Shown here one piece after another: positions 44,401 to 64,000 of a stretch of DNA of 64,000 nucleotides. The notes under the pieces were generated by a model. That model was given only the letters and a program-made list of their open reading frames with translations, was not told the origin of the DNA and made no database searches. Position 1 is the stretch's first letter. Every line of letters starts with the position of its first letter. Source of the stretch: Antedon mediterranea (taxonomy: Eukaryota; Animalia; Echinodermata). The stretch spans positions 20,953,648 through 21,017,647 of the forward strand of contig NC_092673.1 in the NCBI RefSeq assembly GCF_964355755.1, in the 5' to 3' direction. The position numbers were made by a program, and so were the translations under genes.

Positions 44401-46828
44401 CAAAATACTACATTAATACTAAGCAAACAATTTAGTTTTTATTTTTGATTTATAAAAGAATCGGTTTACGAATTACTTTCTGAAATCAAATGCATAAGAA
44501 TGGGTTTACTAATTACTTTCTGAAATCAAATGCATACAGTAGGCATGGGTTTACTAATTACTTTCTGAAATCAAATGCATAGGCATGGGTTTACTAATTA
44601 CTTTCTGAAATCAAATGCATAGGCATGGGTTTACTAATTACTTTCTGAAATCAAATGCATAGGCATGGGTTTACTGATTACTTTCTGAAATCAAATGCAT
44701 AGGCATGGGTTTACTAATTACTTTCTGAAATCAAATGCATAGGCATGGGTTTACTAATTACTTTCTGAAATCAAATGCATAGGCATGGGTTTACTAATTA
44801 TTTTCTGAAATCAAATGCATAGGCATGGGTTTACTAATTACTTTCTGAAATCAAATGCATAGGCATGGGTTTACTAATTACTTTCTGAAATCAAATGCAT
44901 AGGCATGGGTTTACTAATTACTTTCTGAAATCAAATGCATAGGCATGGGTTTACTAATTACTTTCTGAAATCAAATGCATAGGCATGGGTTTACTAATTA
45001 CTTTCTGAAATCAAATGCATAGGCATGGGTTTACTAATTACTTTCTGAAATCAAATGCATAGGCATGGGTTTACTAATTACTTTCTGAAATCAAATGCAT
45101 AGGCATGGGTTTACTAATTACTTTCTAAAATCAAATGCATAGGCATGGGTTTACTAATTACTTTCTGAAATCAAATGCATAGGCATCGGTTTACTAATTA
45201 CTTTCTGAAATCAAATGCATAGGCATCGGTTTACTAATTACTTTCTGAAATCAAATGCATAGGCATGGGTTTACTAATTACTTTCTGAAATCAAATGCAT
45301 AGGCATGGGTTTACTAATTACTTTCTGAAATCAAATGTATAGGCATGGGTTTACTAATTACTTTCTGAAATCAAATGTATAGGCATGGGTTTACTAATTA
45401 CTTTCTGAAATCAAATGCATAGGCATGGGTTTACTAATTACTTTCTGAAATCAAATGCATAGGCATACTAATTACTTTCTGAAATCAAATGTATAGGCAT
45501 GGGTTTACTAATTACTTTATCATATTATATAATTCTTATAGACATTTTTTGTACAGTTTTCTATTACATGAACATTTGTGGAGTATTGAAGACACTACAA
45601 TTTGTGACGTTTTTTTAAAAATAATACATACATTACTTTAAAAACATTAAACCAGGTCATTCCTTGTCTTAAATGTACGTTTTATGGTAATTTATGATAA
45701 AAAGTCAGAAACAATGTACTACCTAAGTAGCTTGCGACGAGGCTTAGTTTTGTAGGCCTAGGTGGTAAACATCAGTAACGTACGAACATCGTACGCTAGC
45801 TATATACCTAGTCTGACGTTGTATAGTTGCTGCATTACTTGTCTTTCTATTTTTGCCAGATTCCGTTGATACAAATTGAGGAAAACCCGTTATTTTCGCT
45901 GAAAAGTTAGGAGTCTTCCATTTGTTTTGATCAAAAAGTGGGTGAATTACATAAGAAAAAAGAAATATCAATGTGCGCGCAATGCATTTTGGGATTTATA
46001 GCGGGTCGCTATAATTATTACAATCAACTTATTTTTCACATTTTTAACCATTTAAAGACGAAAAAGGTTATCGCAATAGGACCATATATAGTATTATTTT
46101 TACATTAAATATAGTTTGTGATCTTAAAATAGATCTAAAAACGTAGGAAAGGTGTCTTTAAATACAACGGAGAGTTTATTCCATATTAAAATTCCTTTAT
46201 TTGAATGATAAACACATTTGTTTTAACGTAGTTTTCCTTAAATTGATATGAAAATGTTCATGCTGTCTGGTATTATACTTATAGTTATGGATATCTTTAT
46301 TTTGTTTAAAATATTACCGATGGATTATATATAGGCCTAGGCCTAGCCTATATTATATAATAAATTAATATATTCCTATATAAAACTTGGATCATCCTAA
46401 AACTCTACCGACCGGGGGTAGGCCTAGTAGTATGGCCTATTATGGCTAGTTTAGAGAGGATTAGAATGGAGGCCAACTGGCGCTACTTTACTGTACTTTC
46501 GCACCTAACTAGGCATAATACTTCACGGCGGTTACTCGGCATCCGGTTACTCACCCTCACCGCCGCGCAGCGAGATTCATACCAGCGACTAGCCTAGGCT
46601 AGGGTCGGCTAGGCTAGCTAGAGTAGTAGTACTAGGAGTAGGCTAGAGCCTAGAGGGCATCTAGACTAGGCCTACCATTTTAGGCTACTAGTATTGAGCA
46701 TGGCTTACACATATACCCAGCAACTTACAAGAAAAATCTTCGTCTTCAGGGTCTTCAAATTGTGGTGTCGGGTTGCTTAAAATAGCGAACTGTTCTGCAA
46801 TATTATCAGACTTTTTACTTGTCGACAT
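32434..46828 (-). CDS. AATF: AATF / BFR2 / Che-1 (nucleolar SSU processome factor), 13 coding exons, about 556 aa
   Basis: Phase-consistent GT-AG exons: 46828-46729, 44014-43826, 43070-42888, 42321-42178, 41684-41547, 41273-41156, 40729-40450, 39726-39565, 37441-37364, 36770-36709, 35065-34985, 34394-34323, 32497-32434 (1671 nt). Diagnostic peptides: [124 protein letters not shown]. Confidence 0.96.
32657..33970. repeat. 94-bp tandem array, about 14 near-identical units, in the last AATF intron
   Basis: Unit ataagtgtgatgtgcccaaatatggtagtgatatatatgggcacatcacataaagtacagtaggttgtcttacacatgtcatgcattattttaa, with starts 94 bp apart (32661, 32755, 32849...). Confidence 0.95.
35545..35860 (-). mobile_element. 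tRNA-derived SINE, family A (AATF intron)
   Basis: Near-identical to 678-984 over about 300 bp. Confidence 0.85.
37602..38459 (-). mobile_element. 3' fragment of a LINE (CR1/L2-clade-like ORF2 C-terminus plus 3' tail)
   Basis: ORF 37860-38486 contains [42 protein letters not shown], the typical post-RT region of CR1/L2/Crack LINEs. The tail has (aaatgtgg/aaat) repeats. Confidence 0.85.
38491..38562 (+). pseudogene. tRNA-like cloverleaf (ATC anticodon, Asp-like) inside a dispersed repeat; a diverged inverted copy lies at about 39068-39140
   Basis: Acceptor stem gccccaa/ttggggc, A box tggtctaatggtt, anticodon arm ctgc-atatcaa-gcag, T arm ccgac-ttcgagt-atcgg (one mismatch), followed by TTTTT at 38565-38569. 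Confidence 0.55.
41830..42118 (+). mobile_element. tRNA-derived SINE, family A (AATF intron)
   Basis: gtggtagagtggttaagacag...cggataaggactataaaccgtagg...cacccagtataaagaaataataaat. Confidence 0.8.
44462..45519. repeat. 40-bp minisatellite, about 26 units, in AATF intron 1
   Basis: Unit aggcatgggtttactaattactttctgaaatcaaatgcat, head-to-tail with rare point variants. Confidence 0.95.
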
Positions 46829-46879
46829 TTTGTCTTCCTCGACGATCCATGTGTTTTTCGCGAGTCGCGACCCATGGGA

Positions 46880-46950
46880 ATCAATGACCCGGAACGATGA
46901 TGGCCAATCAGATTAGTGTTTTTTAGTCGCGGTTTATGATTGGTTAAATG
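46880..46950 (-). promoter_or_regulatory. Probable AATF proximal promoter with two CCAAT boxes
   Basis: GGCCAATCAG at about 46902 and GATTGG at about 46938, in a locally CpG-richer stretch 70-120 bp upstream of the AATF ATG at 46828. Confidence 0.4.
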
Positions 46951-48584
46951 TTTTTTTTATTTCACACACGGGGGACGGCGGATTTTTATTCTCATTATAG
47001 AATGAAGGAACCGTGTTACTGTAACTGCAAATGAATCAAGTAGTTTTCAAATTCATTAAGTAAAATGTATATTTATTTTCAAATAAAATAAAAAATAAAA
47101 TGATAAATTCAATAATACTTTTTGTTATAAATCGTTGGCTTTCTATTTTAATTTTGAGACTTAAACAGAAAAAGGTAGATATATTGTAGGAATTTGCTGG
47201 GCAATGTTAAACAGTTTTTTTAATTAGGAAAAAGGTAATGTGTGCGCAAATATGAAGCATCTTAAAAAGTATTCAAGTGAAACATATACTTTAGGTTAAA
47301 AGTTTTAAAATGTTCTAAAAGATCCATGCTCAATAAAAAACTTATAAAAACCTAATTTATATATAAAATCTTTGTATGATAAAAAGAAAGGTAACTAGCT
47401 ATAAACATTTGATTTTGTAATAATTCTTCTGTTTATAAATCAATTTATACATTTAAATGTGACTATAACGTAACTATATACAAAGAACAAATTATTTTTT
47501 AAAGCTTTAAAATTAGCAAACATAAAATAAAAATATGAGAAATTAAATTAAATGGAAGACGATACAGAGCTTTTAAAATAAACAGAAATCCAAGCAGCAT
47601 TATAAATCGTAGTTCATACATACAATCGAATATTACAATATATTACCTCACATAAAACATTTAAAATTTAACAAAATCAACTTATTTGTATAGAAAAGTA
47701 TAACCTTAAATTCTAAATCATAATTTGACACTTAAAACTTACATAGAAATATTTAGTAATACATTTAACAATACAAAGTATATAAATAATACTGTATTAA
47801 CGAAAGAAACATATTCAAACATATCAACTTTTAAGCTTTAGTTGACAGCAGCCACCACAGCCTGACATAAATAATTACCATACTGACTTGGTTATAAGCT
47901 AAAGAATTTGTATGATAAACTGTATAAAACGCTATACATTTGCCCTGTATCTCCACACAAGTCATCAAGTAGATAACTTGGACACAGACTTGTTCATCAT
48001 TTATATATCGTTTTATAATGAAATAGCTACACTTCACATGACAGAGCTACAGTACACTTTCACTTTCATGTATATCACTATTATTTGCACATAAACTTTT
48101 CTTTTTTATTTATATTTTATTTTATAAGTAAGAATAACATCGTTACACTTCACAATTTCACAAAACAAATGATTCAAATAGTAAACAAGCACATTTTTAT
48201 GACACAAGGTCACCACATATTTTTTTAATTTGTCAACAATGATTCTCAAATGGTAAAAAATTTTGGGTTTATCAATTTATTATGGACAAAAAACATGATC
48301 GTTTATGGGAAGATACAAGAAGTTTGGCAAGTGGGGACTAAACACGGGATATGAGATTCTCCCACAAACCAATTATTTCTATTAAGTCATTTTCCTTGCT
48401 TTTCACATTGAGTTCATTCAGTCCTACGGTATTAGAAATTTAGATTTAATGTAACAAAGAATTAAAAAAACAAAAAATTTGTTTTAAGAAAAAAATGTTG
48501 TTTTAATGTTCTCTAATGTCAAAAAAGGTGTTCATTTTACCTGAAACATATTAAGTAGATGGAATGTAAGTAAAGTAATGTAAA

Positions 48585-49062
48585 TATAGGAAACAGATCA
48601 AGGCTAGCAATACTGTTATCTTTTTAGGGCATTGAGAGGACTGAAACCCCATGAAACTGATCAAGGCTAGCAAAACTGTTTTCATAGGGCATTGAGAGGA
48701 CTGAAACCCCATGAAACTGATCAAGGCTAGCAAAACTGTTTTCATAGGGCATTAAGGGGACTGAAACCCCAGGAAACTGATCAAAGGTAACAACACTGTT
48801 TCCTTAGTGTATTGAGAGGACTGAAGCCCCAGCAGACAGATCAGGGCTAGCAACACTGTATTCTTAGGGCACTGAGAGGACTGAAACCTTCGGAAACAGA
48901 TCAAAGGTACAACACTGTTTCCTTAGTGTATTGAGAGGACTGACAGCAGACAGATCACGGCTAGCAACACTTTTTTCTTAGGGCATTGAGAGGACTGAAA
49001 CCCTAGGAAACAGATCAAGGCTAGCAACACCGATTTCTTAGGGCCTTGGGAGGACTGGGACG
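48585..49062. repeat. About 60-bp degenerate tandem repeat (about 8 units) just 3' of the TIR-SLOG stop codon
   Basis: Unit tagggcattgagaggactgaaaccccatgaaactgatcaaggctagcaaaactgttttca. Confidence 0.85.
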
Positions 49063-49076
49063 TTATAGGGAACACA

Positions 49077-52000
49077 TTAATCAAGACTTGGCCTAATTTC
49101 ATCATCAACACTAATCGCTTTCATTTTACAAAAGCTAGCTTTTCGGCTGGCTTGTAACACTGATGTGTTTGTTGACTCTTTCTTCTTCTGTAATGCTACA
49201 ACTATCCTAGCAACAGCGTCTCCTATTTCATCAATTCCGGCATTTTTATCCCCTAGCAACTCCCAGTCATCTGAACTTACACCATCTGGTACCTGTAAAT
49301 AAATCATACAAAACTTTTTTCAGTCTCAAAAATAATAGTAACGTATAATAATAGTGATTAGTTTCTATTATAATGTGCCATATGATACTTTATAATTTTT
49401 GATTCATAAAGTTTTAAAAAACAAAGAAATATGTTGGAATTACAGGAAACCATAATATGTAAATTGTGAACCTTAAGAATTTTCAGGTTTCATAAGAACT
49501 TTTAGGCTTCTAGTGATTTTATTTATGAAGATTTGTTTTTTTCTTACCTTGAATATTTTTTCAGGAACATTAAACTTTCCGCCAGCTGCTCCACCAGTGC
49601 ACTTGACTGGAATGACAACATGCTCACTCCATGCAAACTGCTCGGCTTCGTGTGCTGCACCTGGACCTCCTAAAAACATACATTTATATTGTAATCATGA
49701 ATACATAAATTGCGAGTGAGGGGTCGAGCGGATAAGACAGTGGAACCATAATTACGTAGCCATAACATCGGCAAAGGTTCAAAGCTCACTCGCTCTGGTG
49801 GTAGAATGAGTCTTCTCGGATAAGGACTATGAACCGTAGGTCCAGTGTACACATCTAGCTTATTTGCACTTTAAAGAACCTAGTACATCTTTTGAGACAT
49901 GTAGGGGGTTACTCTGGTGTATTAGTACACACACAGTCTCTATCACACATGGCCAATGATCATAATTGAGGTCAGTCAGTCAGTCAGTAATAAATAAATA
50001 AGCGATTATATGCATTTAATTTTAAAATATTATTTTTACAAAAAACAACCTTTAAGACGCTGAACTTACCCTCAATAAGGATACAGATGTCAAATACTTG
50101 TGATACAATGTTCTCACGGTCTCGCACACTCTCACCGTGAAACAATGTTTCACCAAAATTCACACTGCGAAATGTCTTGTCTTCGTTTTGACTACCCTGT
50201 TTACTGCGGTCCTGTTTATAATTACAAAACAAAGCTTATATAATTTAAATATAAAAATTGTATTTTTTTTTGTCAGATAATATGCTAACTTCTTATAGCC
50301 TACTGGGCACATAAGTTATTTAAGAGTTTTTAGTCAACATTGTACACTAGGATTGTACTAATCCAATTTTGTTATCATACAAGTGTAGACCTGTGGCCAT
50401 ACTCATCATTCACACTTAGGGAAAACATTTTCCATTAAAATTTTAAAAAATCTCCTGTCTTAGTAAATACAGTTTAAGGGAAGTACTTACAAATTTATTG
50501 AGTGAAATATTTAGGTAAAACATCTCACTTAAGTGTGATTGGTGAATACGCGGAAACTGTGCAAAGCTTAAATGCATGCATTTATTTATTTTTATTTCTC
50601 CACAAACATTATTCGCGCAAACAAGTTCACCTAGGCTTTATGCAACTTACTTCATAATCTTTGATTGGTAGTATATGCCATGTATTTGCTGGTTTCTTGA
50701 GCTGTATTCTGGTGTCATAGAAACTCCTAGAGACTAGTTTACCAACGCCAAAGAAACCGCCTGTTGCCAAACCAATGTAATCTATTTTTGCTAATGATTT
50801 ACCTATAGCTCTTCACAAGGTAAAAACAATAATAAGGTCAGTTGTAGTAGTAATTATAATGTCAAAACGGTCTTAAATGTTAAATGTATTTATTCATCCT
50901 CAAGCTTAACGGGAAACTAAGGAAATTTGGATTAGGCCCTCTACAGACCCACGATATTATCATTACACCATCACTCTCTGTTATATACATCACCTGCCAC
51001 TATTTCTATATGGTTTCCCGTCCATAACGCAACGTGATCTGACAAGAACCGGTGTTTTAACGCAGTATGCCTTGTAGGATAAAACTAAAGAATGTAATGG
51101 TGATACAAGCTATCGTGTTTAAAGAAAGTTTATACTAATAAATTTTAAATATTGACTCTCTCTGCTTATACCCGTGTAAATGAAGTTCAAAGTCTATAAC
51201 TCAAGGACCACAATTGATATACAGTATTAATTATTATTTGAAATATGTAGCAGATAACTTTACAAACTTACCGGCAGATCTGTTCACTTTTATCATAAAA
51301 AAAGCGTGTTCCTCCAGAGATGTAAACACATTTTTTCAAGGGAAGTGAGCATTTTAAGTCGTGCACCTGAAACATTTAGTAAATAATAATGAAGCTCTTT
51401 ATACATGAAATGGTTAGATTCAAGTCATGGTTAGGCTTTCAGCACCATATTCTCATCAGGGAATGTAATATGTACTATCATCTAGTGTTAAAGACCCATT
51501 CTCTACAATTGTTGACGTTTTGTAAAAATAATGCATATATATTACCGTAAAAACATTAAACCAGGGTATTCCTTGTCTTGGATGTACGTTTTATGGTAAA
51601 TTATGATTAAAAGAGAGAAACAATGCACTACCTAAGTAGCTCGCGGTGAATGTCGTCTCACGGACGGTCTTTAGGCCTAGCCTAGCTAGGCTTAGTTTTG
51701 TAGGCCTAGCTGGTAAACAATAGTAACGTACGAACATCGTACACTAGCTATAGGTCTAACCTGACCTTGTCTAGTTGCTGCATTGATTGTCTTTCTGAAT
51801 CCGTAATACCAATCGGGGGAAACCTAGTATTTTCGCTGAAAAGTTACGATTCTTTCATTTATTTTAGCCTTAACGATCGATCGAAAGTAGGTGAATCACA
51901 GAATAAAAACTAAAATATCAATCCATGCGCAATGCATGTTGGGATTTATAGCAGACCGCTAAAATTATTAGAATCAACTTATTTTTCACATTTTGAACCG

Positions 52001-55000
52001 TTCATAGACAAAAGTTTATTGCGATAAAAGTTATCGCAATAGGACCATGTAGTATTCATTTTTACATTAAATGTAAGTTGTGACCTTAAATTGGATCTAA
52101 AAAACGTAGGGAATGGGATTTTAATGGTTGATGGTCCTTTAATTATCAACCATTGATCTATCTCTAAATGTATAATAACACTATTCAAGTTTTACTTACA
52201 AACTGTAAGTGACTATAACTGAATCTGGTAGAAGAATATTTTAATTTATTGGACCTCTGTGTTTTGTCTTTGTTCTTTGACATTGTAACTGTTTGTTTGT
52301 CTGGGCCTTCTTGGAAGATTTATGTTTAAAACTGTAACTAAACTAAAATAAGGTTACTCACATGATTATCAAATTCTGCCTCTTTAGTAGCCTCCGCTTC
52401 AAACTCCTTGGGATCAAATGCTTTCTTAACTCGACTCAAGAGGGAGTCTTTATACCCTGTACGCTGCACATCCTAATTACCAAATAGAACAAAATGTAAA
52501 TAATTTTGTTATATTTATTAATTTCAGCAAACAAGAGATAAAAACAATGAGTAAAGCTCTGTCTACACTATCAAACTCTATGTGACAACAAAATGTCCAT
52601 ATATGGACATGATGATGCCATATCACTACCATATTTGGGCAAATAACACTTTTGTTGTCAAACTAGTTTGATAGTGTAGACAGAGCTTTACGTGTTGAAA
52701 AGATTCATAGGATTTTATTTATAAATTTATAATCAAATGTAAATGATGTTTAAACTGGAAAGGTATTTATCATCATTCTCAAGCTTAACTGGATTTGTAT
52801 TAGGCCAATAGAGTAGCGCCTACCAGATCAGCACACTGGGAGATGATCGATTAGTGGGTACTGGCGTAATCATATGCAATATGTAAACTGACCTCAAATG
52901 TACTTGTTCCTATTAACATGGACATCCATCCAGGCATTTCAAAGTGTTCGTAATTCAAAGGTACAACACGTTTACGATGTTCGCAATAAAACACCTACAT
53001 TATAAAAAAAAAAAAAATTACCTATATTATACAGCAGAACACAATTGAGGTACTTTAAATCCATTTTACTCACAAACTATTTTGTAAGATGCAATAAGAA
53101 GTTTAATGTGTTCATACATCAAATCCCATTTTAGACACAGACACAGCTGCCAATCAAATTCAGTGCGACCATTGCTTGAACTAATCAACATTGTTTTATC
53201 ATTGCATTCATTATTGTTTTAAGAAAATTCACCTGGTGAGCATGTGCAGAAAGGTTAAAAAAAAGGTCAATCACTGATTATCAAGACAGGATTAAAGACA
53301 GTGCGTAATGGCTATTAGCACTCACTGGCTAAACCCAGAGCTTATGGGGGTCCTGAGCAGTGCCCAGAGAAAAAAAACAGGCATTAAAATATTTCAAAAA
53401 AGGCTAAAAACATCCAGCGTTGGAGAGCCAATAATAGGGTTCCTAAACCAAAAGCCTCAGGCCTCTATGTTACGCTACTCATGATATAAAGCCTTCCTTT
53501 TGAACTATATACTATGTTTATTTTTCATACTTTACCTGTTGTTTGCAAGTCTTTGATTCAGCAAAAGCCTTTGAAAGAACAAATAACACTATACCAGATT
53601 CATCCACTCTCTGCTGAAACATGACCTTTGACCGACTCTCAGCTGACATGTCTTGTGTGCAGATTACAGGTATAGTTGAATCTAATAAAACAAAGTGTTT
53701 ACTCTTTGATTTTATTTATGTTTTTATTTATTTTATTTTTGTTTGTTTTACTGTTGCGGTCAGTAAATAGTCGTTTGGTCTGTAGGTAGTCTGTTGGTCA
53801 TTAAGTAGTCTGTTGGTCAGTAAATAGTCATTTGGTCAGTAAATAGTCGTTTGGTCTGTAAATAGTCGTTTGGTCTGTAAGTAGTCTTTTGGTCAGTATA
53901 GTAGTCTGTTGGTCAGTTCAGCTCCTAAATGAATCATCTGTGTTATTGTTTTTTCTTTGTCTTAATTCTTTACTATATTGTATCTTTACCTGATGATTGT
54001 GAAGACCCTTGTGTAGCACTGAAGTCACTGAACTCCATTAGTTCTGTTGTACACCATACCTCATATCCCTCACCTTCAAACAATTTTTTAATTTCATCCG
54101 CCTAAAAAATAAATTTTGTTTAGTCTAGTGAGTAGAACCTCTTATTCAGAGGACACCTCAATTAAGGGATCACTTTATTGGCTGCCCATATATAGGTTAT
54201 ACTATATTTATTTAATATTATTATTATTAAACTTACGAAATATGCTTGCTTTGGATGTACACCAATGACAACCAATGGTTTTCCTTCTCTGCTCTCCATG
54301 GTAACAAATGAGCTCCTACTAGCACTATTTGGGAGAACTGAACCATAACTCTTCAACATTGTGGCCTGAAAAAAACCAAAACATTCTACCAATGTTAACT
54401 AACAATAGTATAAATATAGCAGTAATAATTACCATTTTTCATCAAATTTATTTCAAAATATTTACAATTTCAGGTCAATTAGTGGAAATTAATGGTTCTC
54501 AGCTATAATATTTAATGCTGAAACAATTAATTTGAAGTTAAAAAAATGTTAAATATAAGTGATCACATGATAACATACCCTCCTTGTCAGTCCATTCTCT
54601 GTCTGTTTGTCCCTCAAATCTTTAAACCTTTCAGCAACTTCTCCAGATACATATTGTATATCAGTCATGTCCCATGAATACGTTTTCTCTCCATTGCCTG
54701 ACTGGCCTACAGTGATTAGTAAAGCAAAAACGATCAGGTTAAAGGTTAACTAATTATTGTAACAACATGAAATAGTTTGATCTGATTGGTATGTTCATGA
54801 CCTCTAATCTCCGGGTGTCCCATGTGCTCACGGTCACTACAAAGAGGTTAGATATAATTAAGATTGAAGAAGAAAATTCAGCAAAAGATTACTAAAGCTC
54901 TGTCTACACTATCAAACTTAATGTTACAACAAATATGATGTACGTATATATGGACATGATGATATCATGTCACTACCTATTTGGAAACATCACACTTTTT

Positions 55001-58000
55001 TGTCAAACTAGTTTGATAGTGTAGACAGAGCTTAACACTATAAGCATGCAATCATAGAAACATTACCATAGATAAAAATACTACTATACCTTAGAATCCC
55101 ACATATTATTTGATATTAGTAGCTAATACTACAAAAAAAGAAAAACAGGCGAATGCAGGCTACATTGATATTAGTACTGTGGTATTACGAGGAACAGGCG
55201 AATGCAGGCTACATTGATATTAGTACTGTGGTATTACTAAGAACAAGTGAATATTGGCTGTATTAATACTTGGGGATAAAGTACACTTTAGGGTATTATG
55301 ACAATGATATTATCTAACGGCCTTACCACGTTAATCACCAAAGTTAAGCAACGTTGGGCCCGGTTAGAGCTTGGATGGGAGTATTGGGTGCTGTATATGA
55401 AGCTGGGGACTCTTATGGCAACTGCATCTAGTTTATGCCTCAGACGTATTAGCTTATGCCTCTCCTCTGGCTAAGGTGGGCACTGGACAAGAGAAGCCCA
55501 TATTAAACAGTCCTGGCTTATTCATTATTCAGATGAATATAAGACTAATTGGCACTGTCGTTTACAACAGAAGTCAGCCATCAACAAAAAAATTATCTAA
55601 CAATACACATTTATTCAACATTTTAAGAAACCAAAGAGATAACCCAAGAAAAATGATAAAAGATATATTGTCCCCCTAAACAATTTCTTTTGTTGAATGT
55701 GTCATTTTTATTAATCTTTATTGTGAAGTTTTTGGAGGACAATACATCATGAATGTTTAGAAGCATGGTTTTCACAATGACAGTTATCTCTCCTGAAAGA
55801 TTTTTGTTAGTTGGTTCAGTTTTTAAATAAAATGTAGTTAATGTTATTATTAATATTGTGTAATGTATAATTTTATTTATGTTAAATGATAAATAATAAT
55901 AAAAAAACAAAAAAACTGATTATATTGTATAAAATAGAGTTCTGCGGTGTGACGTCACAACGATAGATGGCGCTGCATGGTTGCTAGCCAACTAAAAAAT
56001 GCGTTCAACGCAATGACTACTTCAATAAGCCTATTCCAAACCATTGGTGACCTTGGAGTCACTCAGCCAGGCTGAACGCATTTTTGGTTGGCTAGCAACC
56101 ACGCAGCGCCACCTACCGTTGTGACATCAGCACCATAGAACTCTATAAAGGATTTTTGACATTTTGTTTAAAATCAACAAGACACAAGGGACTACAAATA
56201 ACCAATGCTATCAGATATTTTACATAATTGTATTTTGACTTTCTTCTCGTTTAATTTGATGTTAATAGCTTTATGGATAATCATCGCAAAAAAGTTTTGA
56301 TTTAATTGTTCATAAATCCCCGTTATTTACCTGATATAACTTTCCCATGAAAGGAAGACATCAGAATTTTTGTAGTCCTTGTCTCTGAAATAAAATTTCT
56401 CCAACATTTTCAAAACAATAAAAAAAGATTTTTTTTTAATATCCGATATATGATAAATAAATAAATATTTATACTACAGTTTGGAAATATGATGTTAGAT
56501 TAATCTTGAACATTTCAAATAAAGAAAGTTATTCATCAGAATACAGGAGTTTATTCCAAATAAACAAGGCAGATATAGTGAGTATTTGCTTTCCCATAAC
56601 TATGAAGTTCTAACTGGGCCTAAAAACCCAATGATTTCACAAATTCAAGGAAATGAGTGAGACATTTGTTTGTTTATTATTTATTTTACCAGATATTCTA
56701 CAAGTTCACATGGTTATAGGTATCATCAATATAACAAGGATTTTTAAAGGGTTTCATTTTTCATAGGGACAAAAATTGACAGAGCTAGGCAATAGTAGTT
56801 GAATATATCATCACTTCTTCTTTGGAAAGGTGTAAAAATGTGTCGAAAAAAAAACAATAATGCTTTCACAACAAATTGATAAATGTTGATTTTAGTGTAT
56901 ATTTCTGTGTGGACCATTATACTAACTGTAATAACTGAGGATAATTTGCCATTTTATGTAGGCAAAAATATATTCATAAATGTTGATTTTAGTGTGTATA
57001 TGTGTATGGCACCATTATACTAATACCTGGTGGAGGAGTATTTTGTAATTTTACATGACAACAAAATTAATAAATGTTAATTGATTTTTAGTGTATATTT
57101 CTGTGTGGAACCATTATACTATACCTGAGGAGTATTTTGCCATTTTCCCAAATGCGCTGTTGTCTGATAGTGGTTTCTTAGACTTAACTGTTGGCAAGAT
57201 TTCACACAGTTAGCAGAAAATGACTAATAACTACAAACAGAATATTGAAAGGTCACTGAACAGTCTTAAGCTCTTTCTTCACTACCAAACTAGTTTGACA
57301 AAAAAAGTGTGATGTGCCCAAATATGGTAGTGATATGACATGTCCATATGGGTATATCACATATTCATGACACATTTAAGTTTGATAGTGTAGACAGAGC
57401 TTTATCTTGCTAATAAAGGCATATTTTAAGCTGTATTTATTATTTCATAGAAGCTTAGAACTATCTTTTAGACAGATGATACATACATTCTATACTACAG
57501 AATATTGTTTTATGGTAAAATGGTAAATTCCATGGCAACAAATTTTTATTGGCTTTTCAGTATGATAACTTTACTTAATTAGAGAGATTCTATCCTAAAT
57601 AGTTTTGGAATTTAGCAAGCAAAAGATTTATAGCATAGAATTACAAAGCTCACACACAACAACAAAGCAAAACATAGCTAAAAATAATAACAAAACACAT
57701 TCAAGTCTACATATTATGATGGATAAAACTCAGGACCAATGTAACATGCAATATGACAATTGACAGCCTACCGTTAGAAAGATCAGGCCTTTTCCATGCA
57801 ATGAACTGCGTGGTTGCAAACTGAATAGCAAGACACCCAGGAGGCCACGTGTCTAGAAAGTTTACTGGAACTATAAACTTCCCGAGTACATCTGCTAATT
57901 TGATCTTCAAAGCACAAAATGAAAACCATTTTAATAACAATACAGATATTTTATTTATAAGATATAATTTTAGTGATTTAAATCACTAAAAAGATCAATT

Positions 58001-61000
58001 TCTTTTCTGAAGATGAACACACATTCATGAAATAATATTCGTAATAATATAAGTAAAGCTCTGGACTACCTCTAGGATTTAGTCCTGGACTATCCTAAAA
58101 AGATATTTATGAATGTGGTTTTATACGCCTATCCACCACATTACGTTGATTTATTGCTATTCATTAATATCAATATTAATATTGTAAATTAGCTTTATAA
58201 CCTTATGCATCACATTATTATGTTAATTGTACTGTGTCAGTATGGATTCAACATATGCTTTGGGTCTACAAATGTATTTATTGAACGATACAAAATGAAA
58301 ATTTTTCTTTTACCTCTCTATTTGTCCATTGTGTTTGACCATAAGCTGGAGTTAGGAGTGGAAGAAATACTTCACAATTACTAACAGCAAAGTTTAAACT
58401 GTCTTGCCAGTCTGTTCCACATCGTATCTCATGTACATCCTACAGGACATAATGTAAAAAGGATATTAGAAATGCACTGGACAAGGACTAGCAGTATAAG
58501 AAGAGTAAAATCATAGCATACATAAACCTAGAGTCTACACTATCAAACTTTATGCGACAAAAAAATGTGATGTGCCCATATATGGTAGTGATATGTCCAA
58601 GTATGGTTGTGATATGATATCATCATGTCCATATAGGCACATCACATTTTTCTGTCACCTAAAGTTTGATAGTGTCTGTTACTAAACATTTGAGGAAGCC
58701 AATCAGTCAAGGGTTTAGGAGGCGAGAGACTGATCATTTTCGAAACAAGAGGTAAACTTTGATCTGGCTGAGATCAACGTCCTGTTGTTAGATTGCCTTG
58801 TTTATAGCATTTAAATGTCCGATTTTTGTCCATGAACAGAGTCATTGTGAGTTATTCATGTCAATTTAAACACATATAATAAATCATGTACACACGCCTG
58901 AAGAGATACAGATGATTCACTGATACTATAACTTATTTTTATATAAAAAGTAATTTTATTGGTTGAGGGAATTTAGAATAAATTTTGCTTTTAAATATCA
59001 CCAAGTTGCATAACTAATTAACTTCATAATTTACTATTAATCTAAACATTTTAATTAAGACACCTTCTTCCATCATCTGTCTTCTCACACATTTTACAAA
59101 CAGTTTTGCGAATGTACACACTCAATGCAAAAACATAACATATAACATCCTTTTACAAAAAAGAAATAAAAAAGAATCAAGTATTGATATATACTGTGCT
59201 TGACTGATACTTCATGAGATTGATATTTCATGTGATTGATATATCATGTGATTGATATATCATGTGATTGATATATCATGTGATTGAAATATCATGTAAT
59301 TTGTATAATTTGATTGACTGATATACCATGTCATGTGACAAACATATTACAAACATGCCAAAATCTGAATTTTTTTTAAATGGGAGGTGGTGTTTTTTAT
59401 AGGTCAACAGCACCTTCTATTTATTATTGACACCAGGAGAAATAAGGAGTGCAGTGTTTGACGTGACATATCCATGTGGTGAATATGTAATGAAAATCCC
59501 CTTCCGATGTGAGGAAAATCGGTTTAAAAAAAAATTATGACAGTAGATGTTCGTAGAATGGCTTAAATTTCGTAAATTTGCTTGTGTATAAGCTTTTTTG
59601 TTATATTTAATGCACAAACAACACATACATCAAGTTCAGTTATCTTTGTAATCTGGGAGAAAATATGGAAAACCAAGAGCACAATGTAAGGCCAGGATAC
59701 GAGTCTAACATATGGCAGTCTCTCCGCCAAAACGGGAGTGTTGGCTTGTATATATTTTGGTATATTTATCCACATATAAATCAATACAAAAATACATACA
59801 TTATTACTAATGCAGCCCAACGAGCTGAATTGCAGAAATAATATATTAGCCTAAATTGATTGATTGACATCAGAAAAGCTACGAGAAAGTTACGAAAAAC
59901 ACACAGTACGGGGAAAAAAAACCGTAGTCAGGCACAAATTTTGTGGTCAATGTATATATTTAGATATGTAATAAGTGAATGTTTTAAGGTTTTTTATTCA
60001 TGTATGTTTTTAATTGTATGGTACAATATCTAATTTTATTAAGATATTTCTATTTTTATAGCAATTTTAACTAATTTTTAGTCATTTGTAATACATTCAT
60101 TTCAGTCCTTGACTGTTGTTTTGTAATATATTTTTATATACCGAATAAATAAAAAATTAAAAAAATATCAAACAATTGCAACAAAATTGCACGTATGATA
60201 TCATGTGATTGGTTGATATTCCACCAGAAAAGATTTATTATCAAATTAATAATTCAGACACTTACTAGATAAACACTGAACCCCTCTTCTTCTAAACCTT
60301 CTTTCAAATCCAAAGCACATTGTGTTGCCTCTGCTCTAACGTAACTAATCACAACTTCCTTGGCTAGTTGCTCATTTTCAAATGGCACAGGTGAGTTTGG
60401 TTGTGTTCGTGGCAAAGAAGGGGATTTTGAAGCAGAATGATTGACAACAGTTAGAGAAGAAGTTGATGGTTGATGACTATGACTATGTACACGTGTCGGT
60501 GTTCTAAAGAAAAAATGTTTAAGATGTAAAACCAAACCAAAAACATGAAAAATTAAGATTAATAAAATCAGACTTTAAATAGGCCATTTAACAGTTTTAA
60601 TCAAGTTATTAACTTCTGTAAAAAAATATATAATTATTTCACTTAAAAAACGATAAAAGAAATGTTTAATTTTAAACAAAAACCATTGTCTGACAGTGAC
60701 AGACATATTTTTTGCTTTAAATTACATTTTTTCAGGCAAATAATTTTGTTTTCAATCCAGTTTTTGGTCAAAGTGAATAAATATTAAGTGTAATTCTGTT
60801 CATTTGAATTTGTTATTTCATTCCAGCTTTATTCAGGATTTACATTAATATAATAAAATATAACTAGTACAAATATGGTATAATCGAGAAACTCCCTATA
60901 GTCAAATGATTATGATAATGCCTTGAAAGAGGTGTACACTTCATATAGACGCATACATAACTTCTGTTTAAGAAAGCAAGAGAACATACTGTACCTTGCT

Positions 61001-64000
61001 ATTGTGATCACTACTTATTGTAATTGCTTCTCTCCTCAGAGGGAAAAAGGGCTATTTTGGTTTATTCAGAAAGCTAGGCATAAAATAGCCAACTGGAGGA
61101 ATTAGCAATGCTCGAGCAAAGTCTATCAAATGTAATTGATGTTTGGAACCAATTTAATAATGGAACAACAGACCAAAAATTATGTATGTTCTTGGTTCTT
61201 CCTACAAATATTGAAGTTGTATTCGATAGATTTGGTAAAGGTTTCACCAAATGGGCATGGAAAAGTAGAAGGGAAAGCAACAATAAAAATGCTATAGTTC
61301 TTTGCTTTTTAAATCCTGTATTACTTTTGTTTATGTTATTTCCTTGTAAATGGGCCTATTGTTATTTTTTTATTTTTTTATTTTACTTACTCTGTGCCAC
61401 GTGTTTCAAAAGTGTAGCTTTCAAAATAAATTATTATTATTATTATATTCAACACTTACGGTTTAAGCACCTTCTGTGGAGGCGAGTCTGAAGAGTCTAT
61501 TTCTTCCATTGGCTCAACAACCTCCTCTCGTCTGTCGGCACCAGCACCAAATACATAAACACTAGCACCAGATATGATATCAAGAACTGATAAAGAAGAT
61601 TCTTGTGATGGGCAGATTGGCCATTGGTTACGATCTAAGAAGATTATATCTGTAGTACATGACCATGACCTGCCACCAAGCTGAAAGTTTCAATATACAT
61701 GTAAAGTCAATGTTTGTCCCATTACAGGGCTTGACATTTATCCTAGTAGGTCCTTTTTCTGCTGCCCAAAAATAATGGATGGTTAATAACTGTGTGAATA
61801 AATTAACCCCAATTTCTTGGCAGCAGAAACAGGACAAATTGTCAATAACCTGTTAAATGGCAGCCTGAAAATAACAGTTAAAAACAGCCAATCGATTTGG
61901 TGTTAGATTATTTGATTGACAGCCTTTGACTTGAGTCAACTACACTGCAGTTTGAACTGACTGCCAGTGCCAATTGCATTTTGGGTACTGATTCTGTCTG
62001 CGATCATACGGTCTATATAAAAATTATAATTTTGAAATAAATTGTTTATTTAGCGCTATGGAGAAGAAACACCTAGTAAACTAGCAAAAGATTTTTATAA
62101 TTGCTAGCTAGTTAAAAATGTCAAAACTTGCTACAACAAATTTGCTAGTTACAGTAGATATTTACAACTAACAAAACAAAAAATATTGATATTAGTTAAT
62201 TTACCAATAAAATGTATAGTAATTTCAACTTCAATATAATTTTGAATATAATTTAAAGTATTATAGATACGGGAAATCAACAGAAAACATTAAAACAGTA
62301 GAAACTTAAAATTATACATGATATTACCAGGGTTGTTATTACTATTTGAACTAGTTATGAATAGAAAGAGGAAGTGAGCGATGATCACATGCTGTGAACT
62401 CTTGACCTTATAGTTGTATTAGAAAAAAAATCAAGCTCATATGTTTATGCAGCTCACCAAAATGGATTGTGATTTATAGGAGGAATTCCAAAGTACATTA
62501 CAGCTATCTTAAGCTGTGTTTTATACAACAACCTAAATTTGAACACTTCTTTAATTTTTAATATGCAAAACAAGCAAAATTAAGACAAGTAGCCTTTTTC
62601 ACAATTATAATCACCTTAAAACAGAATCTCTACAATGAAATGATGACGCTACTACGTTGGATGGCTCCCTCTTGAGGGCGTGGTTACGGATGCGTGCATT
62701 ATCCGATAGGGGTGCTATGTTATATATACACAGATTTTTCTTTTTCGTAAATTGTATCCTCTCTTCGGAGAGAGAGGCTATATTGTCGGTTTATCCAGGT
62801 AAGCAGGCACGAAATAGACTCTACAATGTTATACGCCACACTTCTTGTAGGCGTGTTGAATGCATGTAATATTAATAGCATGTTGTATAAACGCACCCTA
62901 AGTTGGAGTTGCGAATCAATATAAAGAATATAAAATACTATAATGTTAATTAAATATCTCATTTTTGTGATATTAAAAAAAAGTAATAATGTAAAGTGAT
63001 AGGTTGATGAGAAAATAACATTTTTTTAAATTATCTACAGTACAATCTTGTAATTTATGGTAATTTAATCTCATTATATAATAAAAGAATAAATTAATTA
63101 CCTGAGAGGCTACAGCTCGTCTGAGATCAGAAACCATTAATGTTAAGCTGGAGACAAATACAAAGCCTAAGGCAGTTCCATCTTTCGTAATAATTCCAAC
63201 TCTAGGCCGATCTACTGACAGAGATGATAATAATTAGATAAATATTTAATTACCATCTTTAATGAGGGTGGCCTAACAGTTCCATAAGATATTAAAGATG
63301 TATTTCCCAAAAAAACATGAAAAATGAAGATTAATAAAATCAGATTTTGAATAATGTAGGTCATTTTGCAGTTTATTCCTCTTTCCATAGAAAAAAAAAC
63401 AAAAATAATAATTTCAGTTATAAAAAGACATAAAATTGGTTAAATTAAAGAACTCATTGTCTGACAGGCAATGGGATTCCGTTTTAAATTATGATATATA
63501 TATATATATTTTTTTTAATCTAATTTTTACAAAAAAAAATCTTTTTTCAGGGGGGAAAATATGAAAAGGCAATCAGTCCATCACAACTAAATAAAATGCA
63601 TTTGTATAAGAAAGTAGGAGTTGTAGTTACAGTATATCTTAGTATTTCTTGGTAAATTATCATGAACTAAATTAGCAAAGAATCACTAAATAGTTTAAGT
63701 TAATATAAAACAAACCAAGGCAAGCCATTTCAATAAATAATATGTCCAATGGTTTCATTTCTGTATCAATGAATTGATAAACTATGGTTATACTAGCAAA
63801 CAAAGTATCACTGATATATAATGTTTGATTTAAAGTTTGATGAAAATAATACTAATTACTGTATTAAAAGTCTTGCAGGACCTCAAAAACAAAAACATTT
63901 ACTTACCAAATCCAGGCTGAATTTTAATGACGCCGTTTTCATTGATAAGATGTTGAATTTTAATTAGAGCTTCTTGTATTGATGCTACAGGCCATCTGAT
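49077..64000 (-). CDS. Multi-exon gene (5' end beyond the window) encoding putative ubiquitin-like repeats - TIR - TIR - SLOG protein, >795 aa
   Basis: Phase-consistent GT-AG exons: >64000-63907, 63214-63102, 61680-61460, 60503-60266, 58439-58314, 57904-57772, 54706-54579, 54365-54237, 54101-53990, 53681-53536, 52994-52893, 52472-52362, 51366-51272, 50810-50651, 50211-50070, 49669-49548, 49292-49077 (2388 nt, open to TAA). TIR1: EVVISYVRAE..LEEEGFSVYLDVHEIRCGTDWQDSLNFAVSNCEVFLPLLTPAYGQTQWTNREIKLADVLGKFIVPVNF. TIR2: LVVIGVHPKQ..FEGEGYEVWC..VDESGIVLFVLSKAFAESKTCKQQVFYC..RVVPLNY. SLOG: CVYISGG..CRAIGKSLA..LATGGFFGVG..RDRENIV..CILIEGGPGAAHE..VVIPVKCTGGAA. Confidence 0.88.
49712..50000 (+). mobile_element. 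tRNA-derived SINE, family A (TIR-SLOG gene intron)
   Basis: gcgagtgaggggtcgagcggataagacagtggaacc...ggttcaaagctcactcgc...cggataaggactatgaaccgtaggtcc. Confidence 0.8.
51488..52124. mobile_element. About 630-bp non-autonomous DNA element flanked by TTAA; second copy at about 45588-46160
   Basis: ttaaagacccattctctac ... gtagggaatgggattttaa. The interior (aaaacattaaaccagg..ccttgtctt..atgtacgttttatggtaa..gttatcgcaataggacc) is collinear with 45588-46160. Confidence 0.75.
53755..53918. repeat. About 19-bp tandem repeat (ggtcagtaaatagtcgttt)
   Basis: About 8 degenerate units in an intron of the TIR-SLOG gene. Confidence 0.75.
55315..55525 (+). mobile_element. 5S rRNA-derived SINE (SINE3-type)
   Basis: Head acggccttaccacgtt..atcaccaaagttaagcaacgttgggcccggttagagcttggatggg..tattgggtgctgta matches 5S rRNA (A and C boxes) with deletions. 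The non-5S body is shared with 7800-8006. Confidence 0.75.
55935..56146. mobile_element. MITE with about 70-bp TIRs
   Basis: tagagttctgcggtgtgacgtcacaacgatagatggcgctgcatggttgctagccaac.. / ..gttggctagcaaccacgcagcgccacctaccgttgtgacatcagcaccatagaactcta. Confidence 0.8.

What the first reader, a model, noticed from the sequence alone, without database searches (positions are those of the whole stretch)
49077..64000. Intron-rich animal gene fusing TIR domains to a SLOG domain: a Thoeris-like nucleotide-signalling module in one polypeptide
Seen: 17 phase-compatible GT-AG exons, only fragmentarily visible in the ORF track, splice into one >795-aa frame with two TIR domains and a C-terminal Rossmannoid domain carrying SLOG hallmarks (VYISGG, TGGFFGVG, RDRE, EGGPGAAHE, VIPVKCTGGAA). 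Established: in bacterial type I Thoeris, ThsB TIR converts NAD+ to a glycocyclic ADPR that is sensed by the SLOG domain of ThsA. The STALD SLOG family associates with TIR and Sir2. The well-known animal SLOG is the ADPR-binding N-terminus of TRPM channels. Inference: this could be an invertebrate innate-immune NAD+/ADPR-isomer signalling protein that makes and senses the messenger, or a SLOG-gated TIR NADase. I do not recognise a named animal gene with this architecture, but cannot exclude uncharacterised database orthologues.
Basis: partly seen in the sequence, partly recalled or inferred. Interest (0 to 1): 0.93.

Follow-up and report, generated by a model that had tools for sequence, protein, structure and literature searches.

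The report
Ancient animal TIR-SLOG signalling protein
This feather-star gene is a real, spliced member of a family found from sponges to starfish that joins a likely NAD-cutting enzyme domain to a fold that binds nucleotide alarm signals in bacterial antiviral defence, so it likely makes a nucleotide messenger and is likely tuned by one.

Summary
Observation confirmed. Seventeen GT-AG exons give a 795-codon frame matching RefSeq isoform X4 of an uncharacterised Antedon mediterranea protein. One RNA-like contig splices the TIR2 exons to the first SLOG exon (38).

92 of 99 homologues, sponges to echinoderms, have all five domains.

The family is already named: its Trichoplax orthologue is labelled ecTIR-DC 15, drawn with TIR only. 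A 2026 preprint's figure legend lists SLOG among architectures of cADPR-making eukaryotic TIR proteins; I could not see which protein. This scan reported the family twice before in octopus.

It is not Thoeris: there is no effector domain, and 20 of 126 homologues lose a SLOG pocket residue while keeping the TIR Glu. Best reading: a likely SLOG-tuned TIR NADase/cyclase. No activity, ligand or immune role is shown.

The parts
49077..63995 (-). 3' part of an intron-rich gene (RefSeq XP_071947691-694, Antedon mediterranea; family ecTIR-DC 15): Ubl-Ubl-TIR1-TIR2-SLOG; about 79 N-terminal residues lie beyond the window end
63907..63995 (-). exon 1 in window: end of ubiquitin-like repeat 1
63102..63214 (-). 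exon 2 (alternative acceptor 3 nt apart, isoforms X1/X2): start of ubiquitin-like repeat 2
61460..61680 (-). exon 3: end of ubiquitin-like repeat 2 and start of disordered linker; joined to exon 4 on an X1 contig
60266..60503 (-). exon 4: linker and start of TIR1 (ISY motif)
58314..58439 (-). exon 5: TIR1 core; W336 at 58328-58326 and likely catalytic E340 at 58316-58314 (WxxxE, aligned to SARM1 W638/E642)
57772..57904 (-). exon 6: TIR1 C-terminal strands (WPP motif)
57125..57187 (-). cassette exon (isoforms X1-X3), poorly conserved loop
56331..56384 (-). cassette exon (isoforms X1, X2), poorly conserved loop
54579..54706 (-). exon 7: long helix after TIR1 (likely its last helix)
52362..54365 (-). 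exons 8-12 (54365-54237, 54101-53990, 53681-53536, 52994-52893, 52472-52362): TIR2, with Gln595 (53538-53536) at the catalytic position, and the helix leading into SLOG; all on one spliced X1 contig
49185..51366 (-). exons 13-17 (51366-51272, 50810-50651, 50211-50070, 49669-49548, 49292-49077): SLOG domain; G684 at 51315-51313, R783 at 50118-50116, G802 at 49661-49659, E806 at 49649-49647
47147..49076 (-). likely 3' untranslated region, containing a 60-bp tandem array (48588-49057); covered by X1 contigs at 47147-48641 and from 49001
   Evidence: UTR assignment is inference

Best explanation
The gene encodes a five-domain protein (two ubiquitin-like repeats, TIR1, TIR2, SLOG) that likely works as a self-regulated NAD-cleaving enzyme: TIR1 likely cuts NAD+ into ADP-ribose or a cyclic form, and the SLOG domain likely binds such a nucleotide and tunes TIR1 rather than switching on a separate killer domain. 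Shown: the gene, its splicing from TIR2 into SLOG, the folds, and the conservation pattern. [quoted passage not shown]
For: TIR1 aligns to SARM1 with Y568, D594, W638 and E642 kept (that E642 is catalytic is recalled). Glu is kept in 129 of 133 homologues (3 gaps, 1 Lys) and the Trp in 123 of 133; this Trp is needed for ADPR cyclisation in bacterial TIRs (10.1101/2022.05.07.491051, passages). TIR1 is the best conserved domain (62% mean identity, linkers 15% and 25%). It also hits Thoeris TIR models (PADLOC ThsB E 1e-12, NCBIfam ThcB4 E 1e-17, far below that model's cut-off). TIR2 has Gln in 108 of 133, Glu in 11. SLOG model pLDDT 95.5; TM1055 Z 17.9 (rmsd 2.6, 157 aligned) and BcThsA-3'cADPR Z 17.7 (rmsd 3.0, 172 aligned) are tied at the top, and the first 18 rows are SLOG-superfamily entries (family labels recalled). 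Pocket positions R783 and E806 are kept in 124 and 113 of 133. ThsA G399 aligns to G802, so E403 matches E806 if there is no gap (ThsA residues). The same SLOG subfamily is fused elsewhere to Macro domains, ion channels, response regulators, EF-hands and phosphatases, as expected of a portable sensor. Helix 650-673 joins TIR2 to SLOG in the model. Most active animal TIRs tested made cADPR (10.64898/2026.04.20.719644).
Against: No activity or binding was measured. Only 12 of 61 animal TIRs with the Glu were active in the preprint, so the Glu does not guarantee catalysis. In 21 of 126 homologues R783 or E806 is lost, and 20 of these keep the TIR1 Glu (related lineages, not independent), so the pocket is dispensable in some animals. 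In Antedon the two phosphate-binding hydroxyls of LOG (S19, T119) read G685 and A803, and TRPM2's M215 and R358 read G721 and G825. R783 and E806 are also the catalytic pair of LOG hydrolases, so they do not separate sensor from enzyme. The mapping to ThsA G289, S290 and R371 rests on motif analogy, not on a residue-level alignment.
Confidence: 0.45

Rival explanations
1. SLOG is a second enzyme, a LOG-type nucleosidase that destroys or converts the TIR1 product, making the protein a writer plus eraser or a two-step synthase.
For: R783 and E806 align to the LOG catalytic Arg and final Glu of PGGxGTxxE. LOG, PpnN and related hydrolases are among the fold matches. The best ESM Atlas hit is a Cap17-like nucleosidase N-terminal cluster (0.88, lead only). 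A review proposes that viral SLOGs degrade cADPR-type signals (PMC9503650, passage).
Against: ThsA also uses an Arg and a Glu to bind its ligand without being described as a hydrolase. The motif's Thr is Ala in 106 of 133 and the Pro is Glu. LOGs score lower (Z 13-15) than ThsA and TM1055. Fusions to ion channels and response regulators look like sensing.
Confidence: 0.2
2. A make-and-sense circuit in the Thoeris sense: SLOG is the dedicated receptor of a glycocyclic ADPR made by TIR1, and ligand binding exposes TIR2 as an adaptor that recruits downstream immune proteins.
For: BcThsA SLOG has the best query TM-score (0.68) and ties for best Z. TIR1 hits ThsB and ThcB4 models. TIR2 is conserved (45%) yet lacks the Glu.
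Against: No partner or effector is known. The pocket is lost in 21 of 126 homologues while the TIR1 Glu stays in 20 of them. Most active animal TIRs made canonical cADPR, which does not activate ThsA. The STALD cut-off is reached by 1 of 23 homologues.
Confidence: 0.17
3. TIR1 is a plain NADase or a non-catalytic adaptor in Toll-type signalling, and SLOG is a structural or vestigial domain, as was guessed for ecTIR-DC proteins in general.
For: ecTIR-DC proteins were hypothesised to be adaptors or regulators (PMC6321704, passage). 49 of 61 animal TIRs with the Glu were silent in the preprint. The pocket is eroded in some lineages.
Against: SLOG is the second best conserved domain (53%), and its Gly loops and R783 rank among the most conserved columns (R783 rank 18 of 203). 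The full WxxxE set is kept from sponges to echinoderms.
Confidence: 0.18

Closest known systems
ecTIR-DC family 15 (Gerdol et al. 2017; seen only through PMC6321704, supplementary Fig. S1)
   Same: Trichoplax H2 TrispH2_005040 (865 aa), labelled ecTIR-DC 15, is 43% identical over 849 aligned residues and has the same five domains.
   Different: That figure draws one TIR only; SLOG, the second TIR and the ubiquitin-like pair are not shown. I could not read the paper that defines the family.
Type I Thoeris (ThsB TIR; ThsA SIR2-SLOG)
   Same: TIR with catalytic Glu; SLOG fold at Z 17.7 to the 3'cADPR receptor; G399/E403 equivalents kept.
   Different: One animal polypeptide; no SIR2 or other effector; an added dead TIR and ubiquitin-like pair; S290 equivalent is Gly in Antedon; product and ligand unknown.
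SARM1 / TIR-1
   Same: Best PDB sequence and fold match of TIR1, WxxxE kept; likely the same logic of a metabolite-gated NADase.
   Different: No ARM or SAM domains; the regulatory site would be a SLOG; a second TIR is present.
TRPM2 MHR1/2 (animal SLOG that binds ADPR)
   Same: Shares the SLOG fold and the GG, TGG and EGGPG loops (Z 8.4-11.8).
   Different: No channel; M215 and R358 not kept; Glu where TRPM2 has T339; a compact domain without the MHR insertions.
LDcluster4 / TM1055 and LOG phosphoribohydrolases
   Same: TM1055 is the top fold and sequence match; the LOG Arg and Glu are kept.
   Different: Antedon is below the LDcluster4 cut-off; the LOG phosphate-binding Ser and Thr are replaced; the animal form has an extra insertion absent from the stand-alone relatives.
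SLOG-bearing cADPR-making eukaryotic TIR protein in Fig. 3A of 10.64898/2026.04.20.719644
   Same: The legend lists SLOG among the architectures of cADPR-producing TIR proteins, whose animal sources include an echinoderm, a mollusc and rotifers.
   Different: The figure and Table S4 were not visible, so whether it belongs to this family is unknown; the passages that mention SLOG do not discuss a TIR-SLOG fusion.

Membership tests
ecTIR-DC 15 | orthology to a protein labelled ecTIR-DC 15 in print | tested here: met
   TrispH2_005040: 43% over 849 residues, same domain order
ecTIR-DC 15 | the original definition by Gerdol et al. 2017 | not tested
   paper not looked up by id and not listed by the ecTIR-DC search; known only through PMC6321704
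SLOG superfamily | SLOG Rossmannoid fold | tested here: met
   pLDDT 95.5; Z 17.9 TM1055, 17.7 ThsA, 16.9 Moco carrier; TIR domains reach only Z 9.5
SLOG superfamily | Gly loop after strand 1, TGG loop, conserved Arg, GGxGxxxE motif | tested here: met
   G684 130/133, G716 131/133, R783 124/133, E806 113/133
LDcluster4 (PF18306) | Pfam gathering score 26.3 | tested here: inconclusive
   Antedon 21.1; 8 of 23 homologues reach the cut-off
STALD (PF18185) | Pfam gathering score 24 | tested here: not met
   Antedon 18.2; 1 of 23 homologues reaches it
Type I Thoeris | TIR with catalytic Glu | tested here: met
   E340, 129 of 133; TIR2 does not have it
Type I Thoeris | SLOG pocket for 3'cADPR (G289, S290, L326, Q359, R371, K388, G399, E403) | tested here: inconclusive
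   G399 and E403 matched by HMM start; G289, S290 and R371 by motif only, with Gly at the S290 place; L326, Q359 and K388 not mapped
Type I Thoeris | effector domain (SIR2) joined to SLOG | tested here: not met
   the 910-aa protein is accounted for by Ubl-Ubl-TIR-TIR-SLOG and low-confidence linkers
Type I Thoeris | production of 3'cADPR and protection from infection | not testable with these tools
   needs LC-MS and infection assays
SARM1 family | TIR with WxxxE | tested here: met
SARM1 family | ARM and tandem SAM domains | tested here: not met
   N-terminal region folds as two beta-grasp repeats matching USP7 Ubl, talin head and ISG15; no ARM or SAM hit
LOG phosphoribohydrolase | catalytic Arg and final Glu of PGGxGTxxE | tested here: met
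   R783, E806
LOG phosphoribohydrolase | full PGGxGTxxE motif and phosphate-binding Ser and Thr | tested here: not met
   reads EGGPGAAHE; G685 and A803 in Antedon
TRPM channels | MHR1/2 ADPR residues (M215, Y295, R302, R358) and channel domain | tested here: not met
   M215 and R358 align to Gly; Y295 and R302 not mapped; no channel domain

The most novel reading that the evidence does not exclude
An animal second-messenger module in one chain, present since the last common ancestor of animals and related to stand-alone microbial-looking SLOGs: TIR1 makes a cyclic ADP-ribose isomer that its own SLOG binds with ThsA-like selectivity, making this a dedicated soluble animal receptor for a TIR-made signal and a feedback switch in invertebrate immunity.
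Probability: 0.22. Interest if true: 0.88.

Novelty: new variant of a known kind. Interest (0 to 1): 0.62.

Why it matters
Plant and bacterial TIR domains make nucleotide signals, and animal TIRs were recently shown to make cADPR in E. coli (10.64898/2026.04.20.719644). The open question is what reads such a signal in animals. This family carries a likely active TIR and a candidate reader in one soluble protein, kept from sponges to echinoderms and molluscs. Two cheap assays (TIR1 products by LC-MS, SLOG ligand binding) would test directly whether an animal TIR signal has a matched receptor. It also gives a likely mechanism to a family named in 2017 without one. Limits: the family is already named, the fusion may already be drawn in that preprint, and this scan has reported it before.

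Tried and rejected
No whole genome is held for this window. Single-exon Pfam scans found TIR in 2 of 17 exons and no SLOG: exons are too short. No run is on record as RNA; X1 is RNA by guess only. The first read laying was swamped by repeats, so the second used a smaller stretch at 98%. The exon 13-14 joint has only 29 letters on its short side, below the tool's 31-letter rule, so I do not count it as a bridge. A pattern scan of prokaryote genomes gave 2 loci, both chance matches antisense to unrelated genes. No SLOG relative was found in plasmids, viral contigs or 401 genomes of one phylum, so the stand-alone relatives have no genomic context or taxonomy and 'bacterial' is only my guess from their size. 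Two single-sequence PDB searches did not give a ThsA alignment. The complex predictor was not available, so domain contacts and dimers are untested. ESM Atlas hits were all below 0.9: leads only. No named cnidarian, chordate, insect, nematode or choanoflagellate hit appeared, but many hits are unnamed, so this is not absence. Burroughs 2015 and Burroughs and Aravind 2020 are not held and could describe the fusion. Considered and rejected: splicing artefact (single uninterrupted ORFs exist in L003 and L004); two separate genes (92 of 99 full-length homologues); ecTIR-DC 8 (a different, 1,082-aa Trichoplax protein); Rfam microRNA hits (all far below gathering score and lying on inverted repeats). 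In one search I first cut exon 11 three bases short; corrected. The 'ok False' line came from a mistyped cassette coordinate of the same length and does not affect the codon positions listed.

Full report
GENE. The region holds the 3' part of a minus-strand gene. Seventeen exons from 63995 to 49077, all with GT-AG introns, give 795 codons and a stop. One exon used as a query found a single protein, 100% identical: RefSeq XP_071947692.1, uncharacterised, Antedon mediterranea, 910 aa. Its cluster has four isoforms (911, 910, 893, 872 aa). About 79 N-terminal residues lie outside the window. Residue numbers below are those of the 910-aa form.

SPLICING. No run is on record as RNA, but run X1 behaves like RNA. 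One 824-nt contig carries exons 8-13 with CT..AC joints of 308, 541, 420 and 995 nt; the last joins the TIR2 side to the exon with the first SLOG strand, with 92 letters on the short side. Another contig joins exons 3 and 4, and a contig of run X2 reads through introns 7-9 as DNA. The exon 6-7 joint (TIR1 to TIR2) was not seen. The whole architecture also occurs as one uninterrupted ORF in loci L003 and L004, and an 860-aa homologue lies on a 2,874-nt contig.

ANATOMY. AlphaFold2 on 84 of the 99 homologues gave mean pLDDT 79 and pTM 0.67. Residues 19-105 and 110-188 are two related repeats (HHalign 99.3%) that match tandem ubiquitin-like domains of USP7, the talin head and ISG15. TIR1 (about 266-382, plus a helix at 437-461) is closest in the PDB to SARM1 and aligns W336/E340 to W638/E642. 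TIR2 (495-648) has Gln595 at that position. A helix at 650-673 leads into the last domain. Modelled alone, that domain has pLDDT 95.5. Foldseek ranks TM1055, BcThsA SLOG with 3'cADPR (TM 0.68) and TRPM2 first. The independent aligner gives TM1055 Z 17.9 and BcThsA Z 17.7, tied, out of 48,161 chains. Pfam gives LDcluster4 21.1 and STALD 18.2 bits, both under cut-off; 8 of 23 and 1 of 23 homologues pass.

FAMILY. A SLOG-region search gave 99 proteins among 2,659 candidates. Named sources are sponges, a placozoan, all five echinoderm classes (the holothurians), hemichordates, molluscs, annelids, nemerteans and chelicerates. 92 of 99 carry all five domains, 4 carry TIR2+SLOG, 2 carry TIR1+TIR2+SLOG and 1 SLOG only (profiles were built from 84 of these, so the count is partly circular). 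Mean identity to Antedon: TIR1 62%, SLOG 53%, TIR2 45%, Ubl 36% and 28%, linkers 25% and 15%. A quick tree of 44 rows that I chose (27 named, 17 unnamed) recovers echinoderm classes, hemichordates and lophotrochozoans as expected from descent; 15 unnamed rows group with the sponge Dysidea. Genomic fragments from other animals break at the same residues as the Antedon exons, for example near 299, 341, 596, 698, 750, 799 and 840.

ACTIVE SITES. Of 231 proteins have TIR1, TIR2 and SLOG. TIR1 Glu: 129, with 3 gaps and 1 Lys. Trp: 123. TIR2 position: Gln 108, Glu 11. SLOG: G684 130, R783 124, G802 97, E806 113. Of the 126 rows filled at all three key places, 105 keep TIR Glu, Arg and Glu; 21 lose R783 or E806, and 20 of those keep the TIR Glu. 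These rows are related, so they are not 21 events. The Trp is tied to ADPR cyclisation, and ThsA binds 3'cADPR through G289, S290, L326, Q359, R371, K388, G399 and E403 (10.1101/2022.05.07.491051, passages). A profile of SLOG relatives starts its ThsA match at G399 = G802, which puts E403 on E806. R783 and E806 also match the LOG catalytic Arg99 and Glu122, while LOG's Ser19 and Thr119 read Gly and Ala here (PMC4979012, passages). Of the TRPM2 ADPR residues (PMC6759353 and 10.64898/2026.03.30.715250, passages), M215 and R358 align to Gly. The pocket is therefore kept in outline but is not a copy of any known one.

RELATIVES OF THE SLOG. A profile search of 1.84 billion representatives gave 809 hits at E 0.001, of which the best 150 were listed. 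Besides the animal family they include many unnamed proteins of about 200 aa with SLOG alone. Among 41 that I scanned, fusions were to Macro plus response regulator, ion channel, EF-hand, dual-specificity phosphatase and others. I could not place the stand-alone forms in genomes.

MECHANISM. The only enzyme-like output in the chain is TIR1, so SLOG has no effector to switch on as it does in ThsA. The simplest reading is SARM1-like logic with a different sensor: TIR1 likely cleaves NAD+ on assembly, TIR2 is a likely dead spacer or partner, and SLOG likely binds an ADPR-type nucleotide and shifts the assembly. Loss of the pocket in some lineages with TIR1 intact fits a modulator better than an obligatory receptor. 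Confidence 0.45. Rivals: SLOG as hydrolase 0.2, strict make-and-sense with TIR2 as output 0.17, adaptor or vestigial SLOG 0.18. An immune role is not shown.

WHAT IS KNOWN. The Trichoplax H2 orthologue TrispH2_005040 (43% over 849 residues) is labelled ecTIR-DC 15 and drawn with one TIR in PMC6321704 (passages and supplementary file 1 read). In 10.64898/2026.04.20.719644 (parts 1-3 of 6 and passages read; figures and tables not seen), the Fig. 3 legend lists SLOG among domains of cADPR-producing eukaryotic TIR proteins, and 12 of 61 animal TIRs were active. That protein may belong to this family. Searches for SLOG + TIR domain + invertebrate, ecTIR-DC, SLOG + nucleotide-centric systems, TIR-SLOG, SLOG/TIR/Thoeris/metazoa, LDcluster4 (93) and Thoeris type III (100, 105) listed no paper that describes this architecture, judged from listings and the passages read. 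Those passages: PMC9503650, 10.1101/2024.09.18.613514 (85), PMC5549309, PMC6836662, 10.64898/2026.01.22.701046 (104). Gerdol 2017, Burroughs 2015 and Burroughs and Aravind 2020 were not seen and may mention it. This scan noted the same family twice in octopus.

VERDICT. A real, ancient, already named but unexplained animal family; a new arrangement of known parts. It works like a likely nucleotide-gated TIR NADase and is not a member of Thoeris. Interest 0.62.

Noticed in passing
window about 40380-46900, minus strand: The next gene downstream is an AATF/Che-1 homologue: two exons pass the Pfam cut-off. Ordinary neighbour.
   Followed up: partly
window 52551-52691, 54893-55036, about 57262-57404, about 58514-58675: Four copies of a roughly 140-bp MITE-like element with 26-27-bp terminal inverted repeats sit in introns; very high read depth there points to a high-copy family.
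   Followed up: partly
window 55950-56129: A second inverted-repeat element with 49-bp arms, 90% complementary; its Rfam microRNA hit is far below the gathering score.
   Followed up: no
window about 45628-46141 and 51537-52103: A roughly 550-bp interspersed repeat present once in intron 12 and once near the AATF gene, 82-90% alike in blocks.
   Followed up: no
window 48588-49057 and 45000-45518: Tandem arrays of 60 bp (7.9 copies, in the likely 3' UTR) and 40 bp (at least 13 copies, 96% matches; cut by the scan start).
   Followed up: no
window about 55320-55385: A short stretch that resembles part of 5S rRNA by eye (recalled resemblance); Rfam did not list it.
   Followed up: no
L001, L003, L004 and unnamed proteins grouping with Dysidea: Intronless copies in gene-poor contigs; pairs such as P0069/P0072 and P0071/P0077 share a contig length, hinting at tandem paralogues. 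One branch (P0049, P0085, P0090, P0091) has Cys for R783 and a TIR1 that also scores as DUF4062.
   Followed up: partly
P0246, P0247: Unnamed 1,300-aa proteins join an ion-transport domain to this SLOG subfamily: candidate nucleotide-gated channels with a C-terminal SLOG, unlike TRPM.
   Followed up: no
P0290, P0320, P0102: SLOG of this subfamily fused to Macro domains, two of them with a response-regulator receiver.
   Followed up: no
P0092 (mite, 1,274 aa): Carries two TIR1-type domains before TIR2 and SLOG; a duplication or a gene-model artefact.
   Followed up: no
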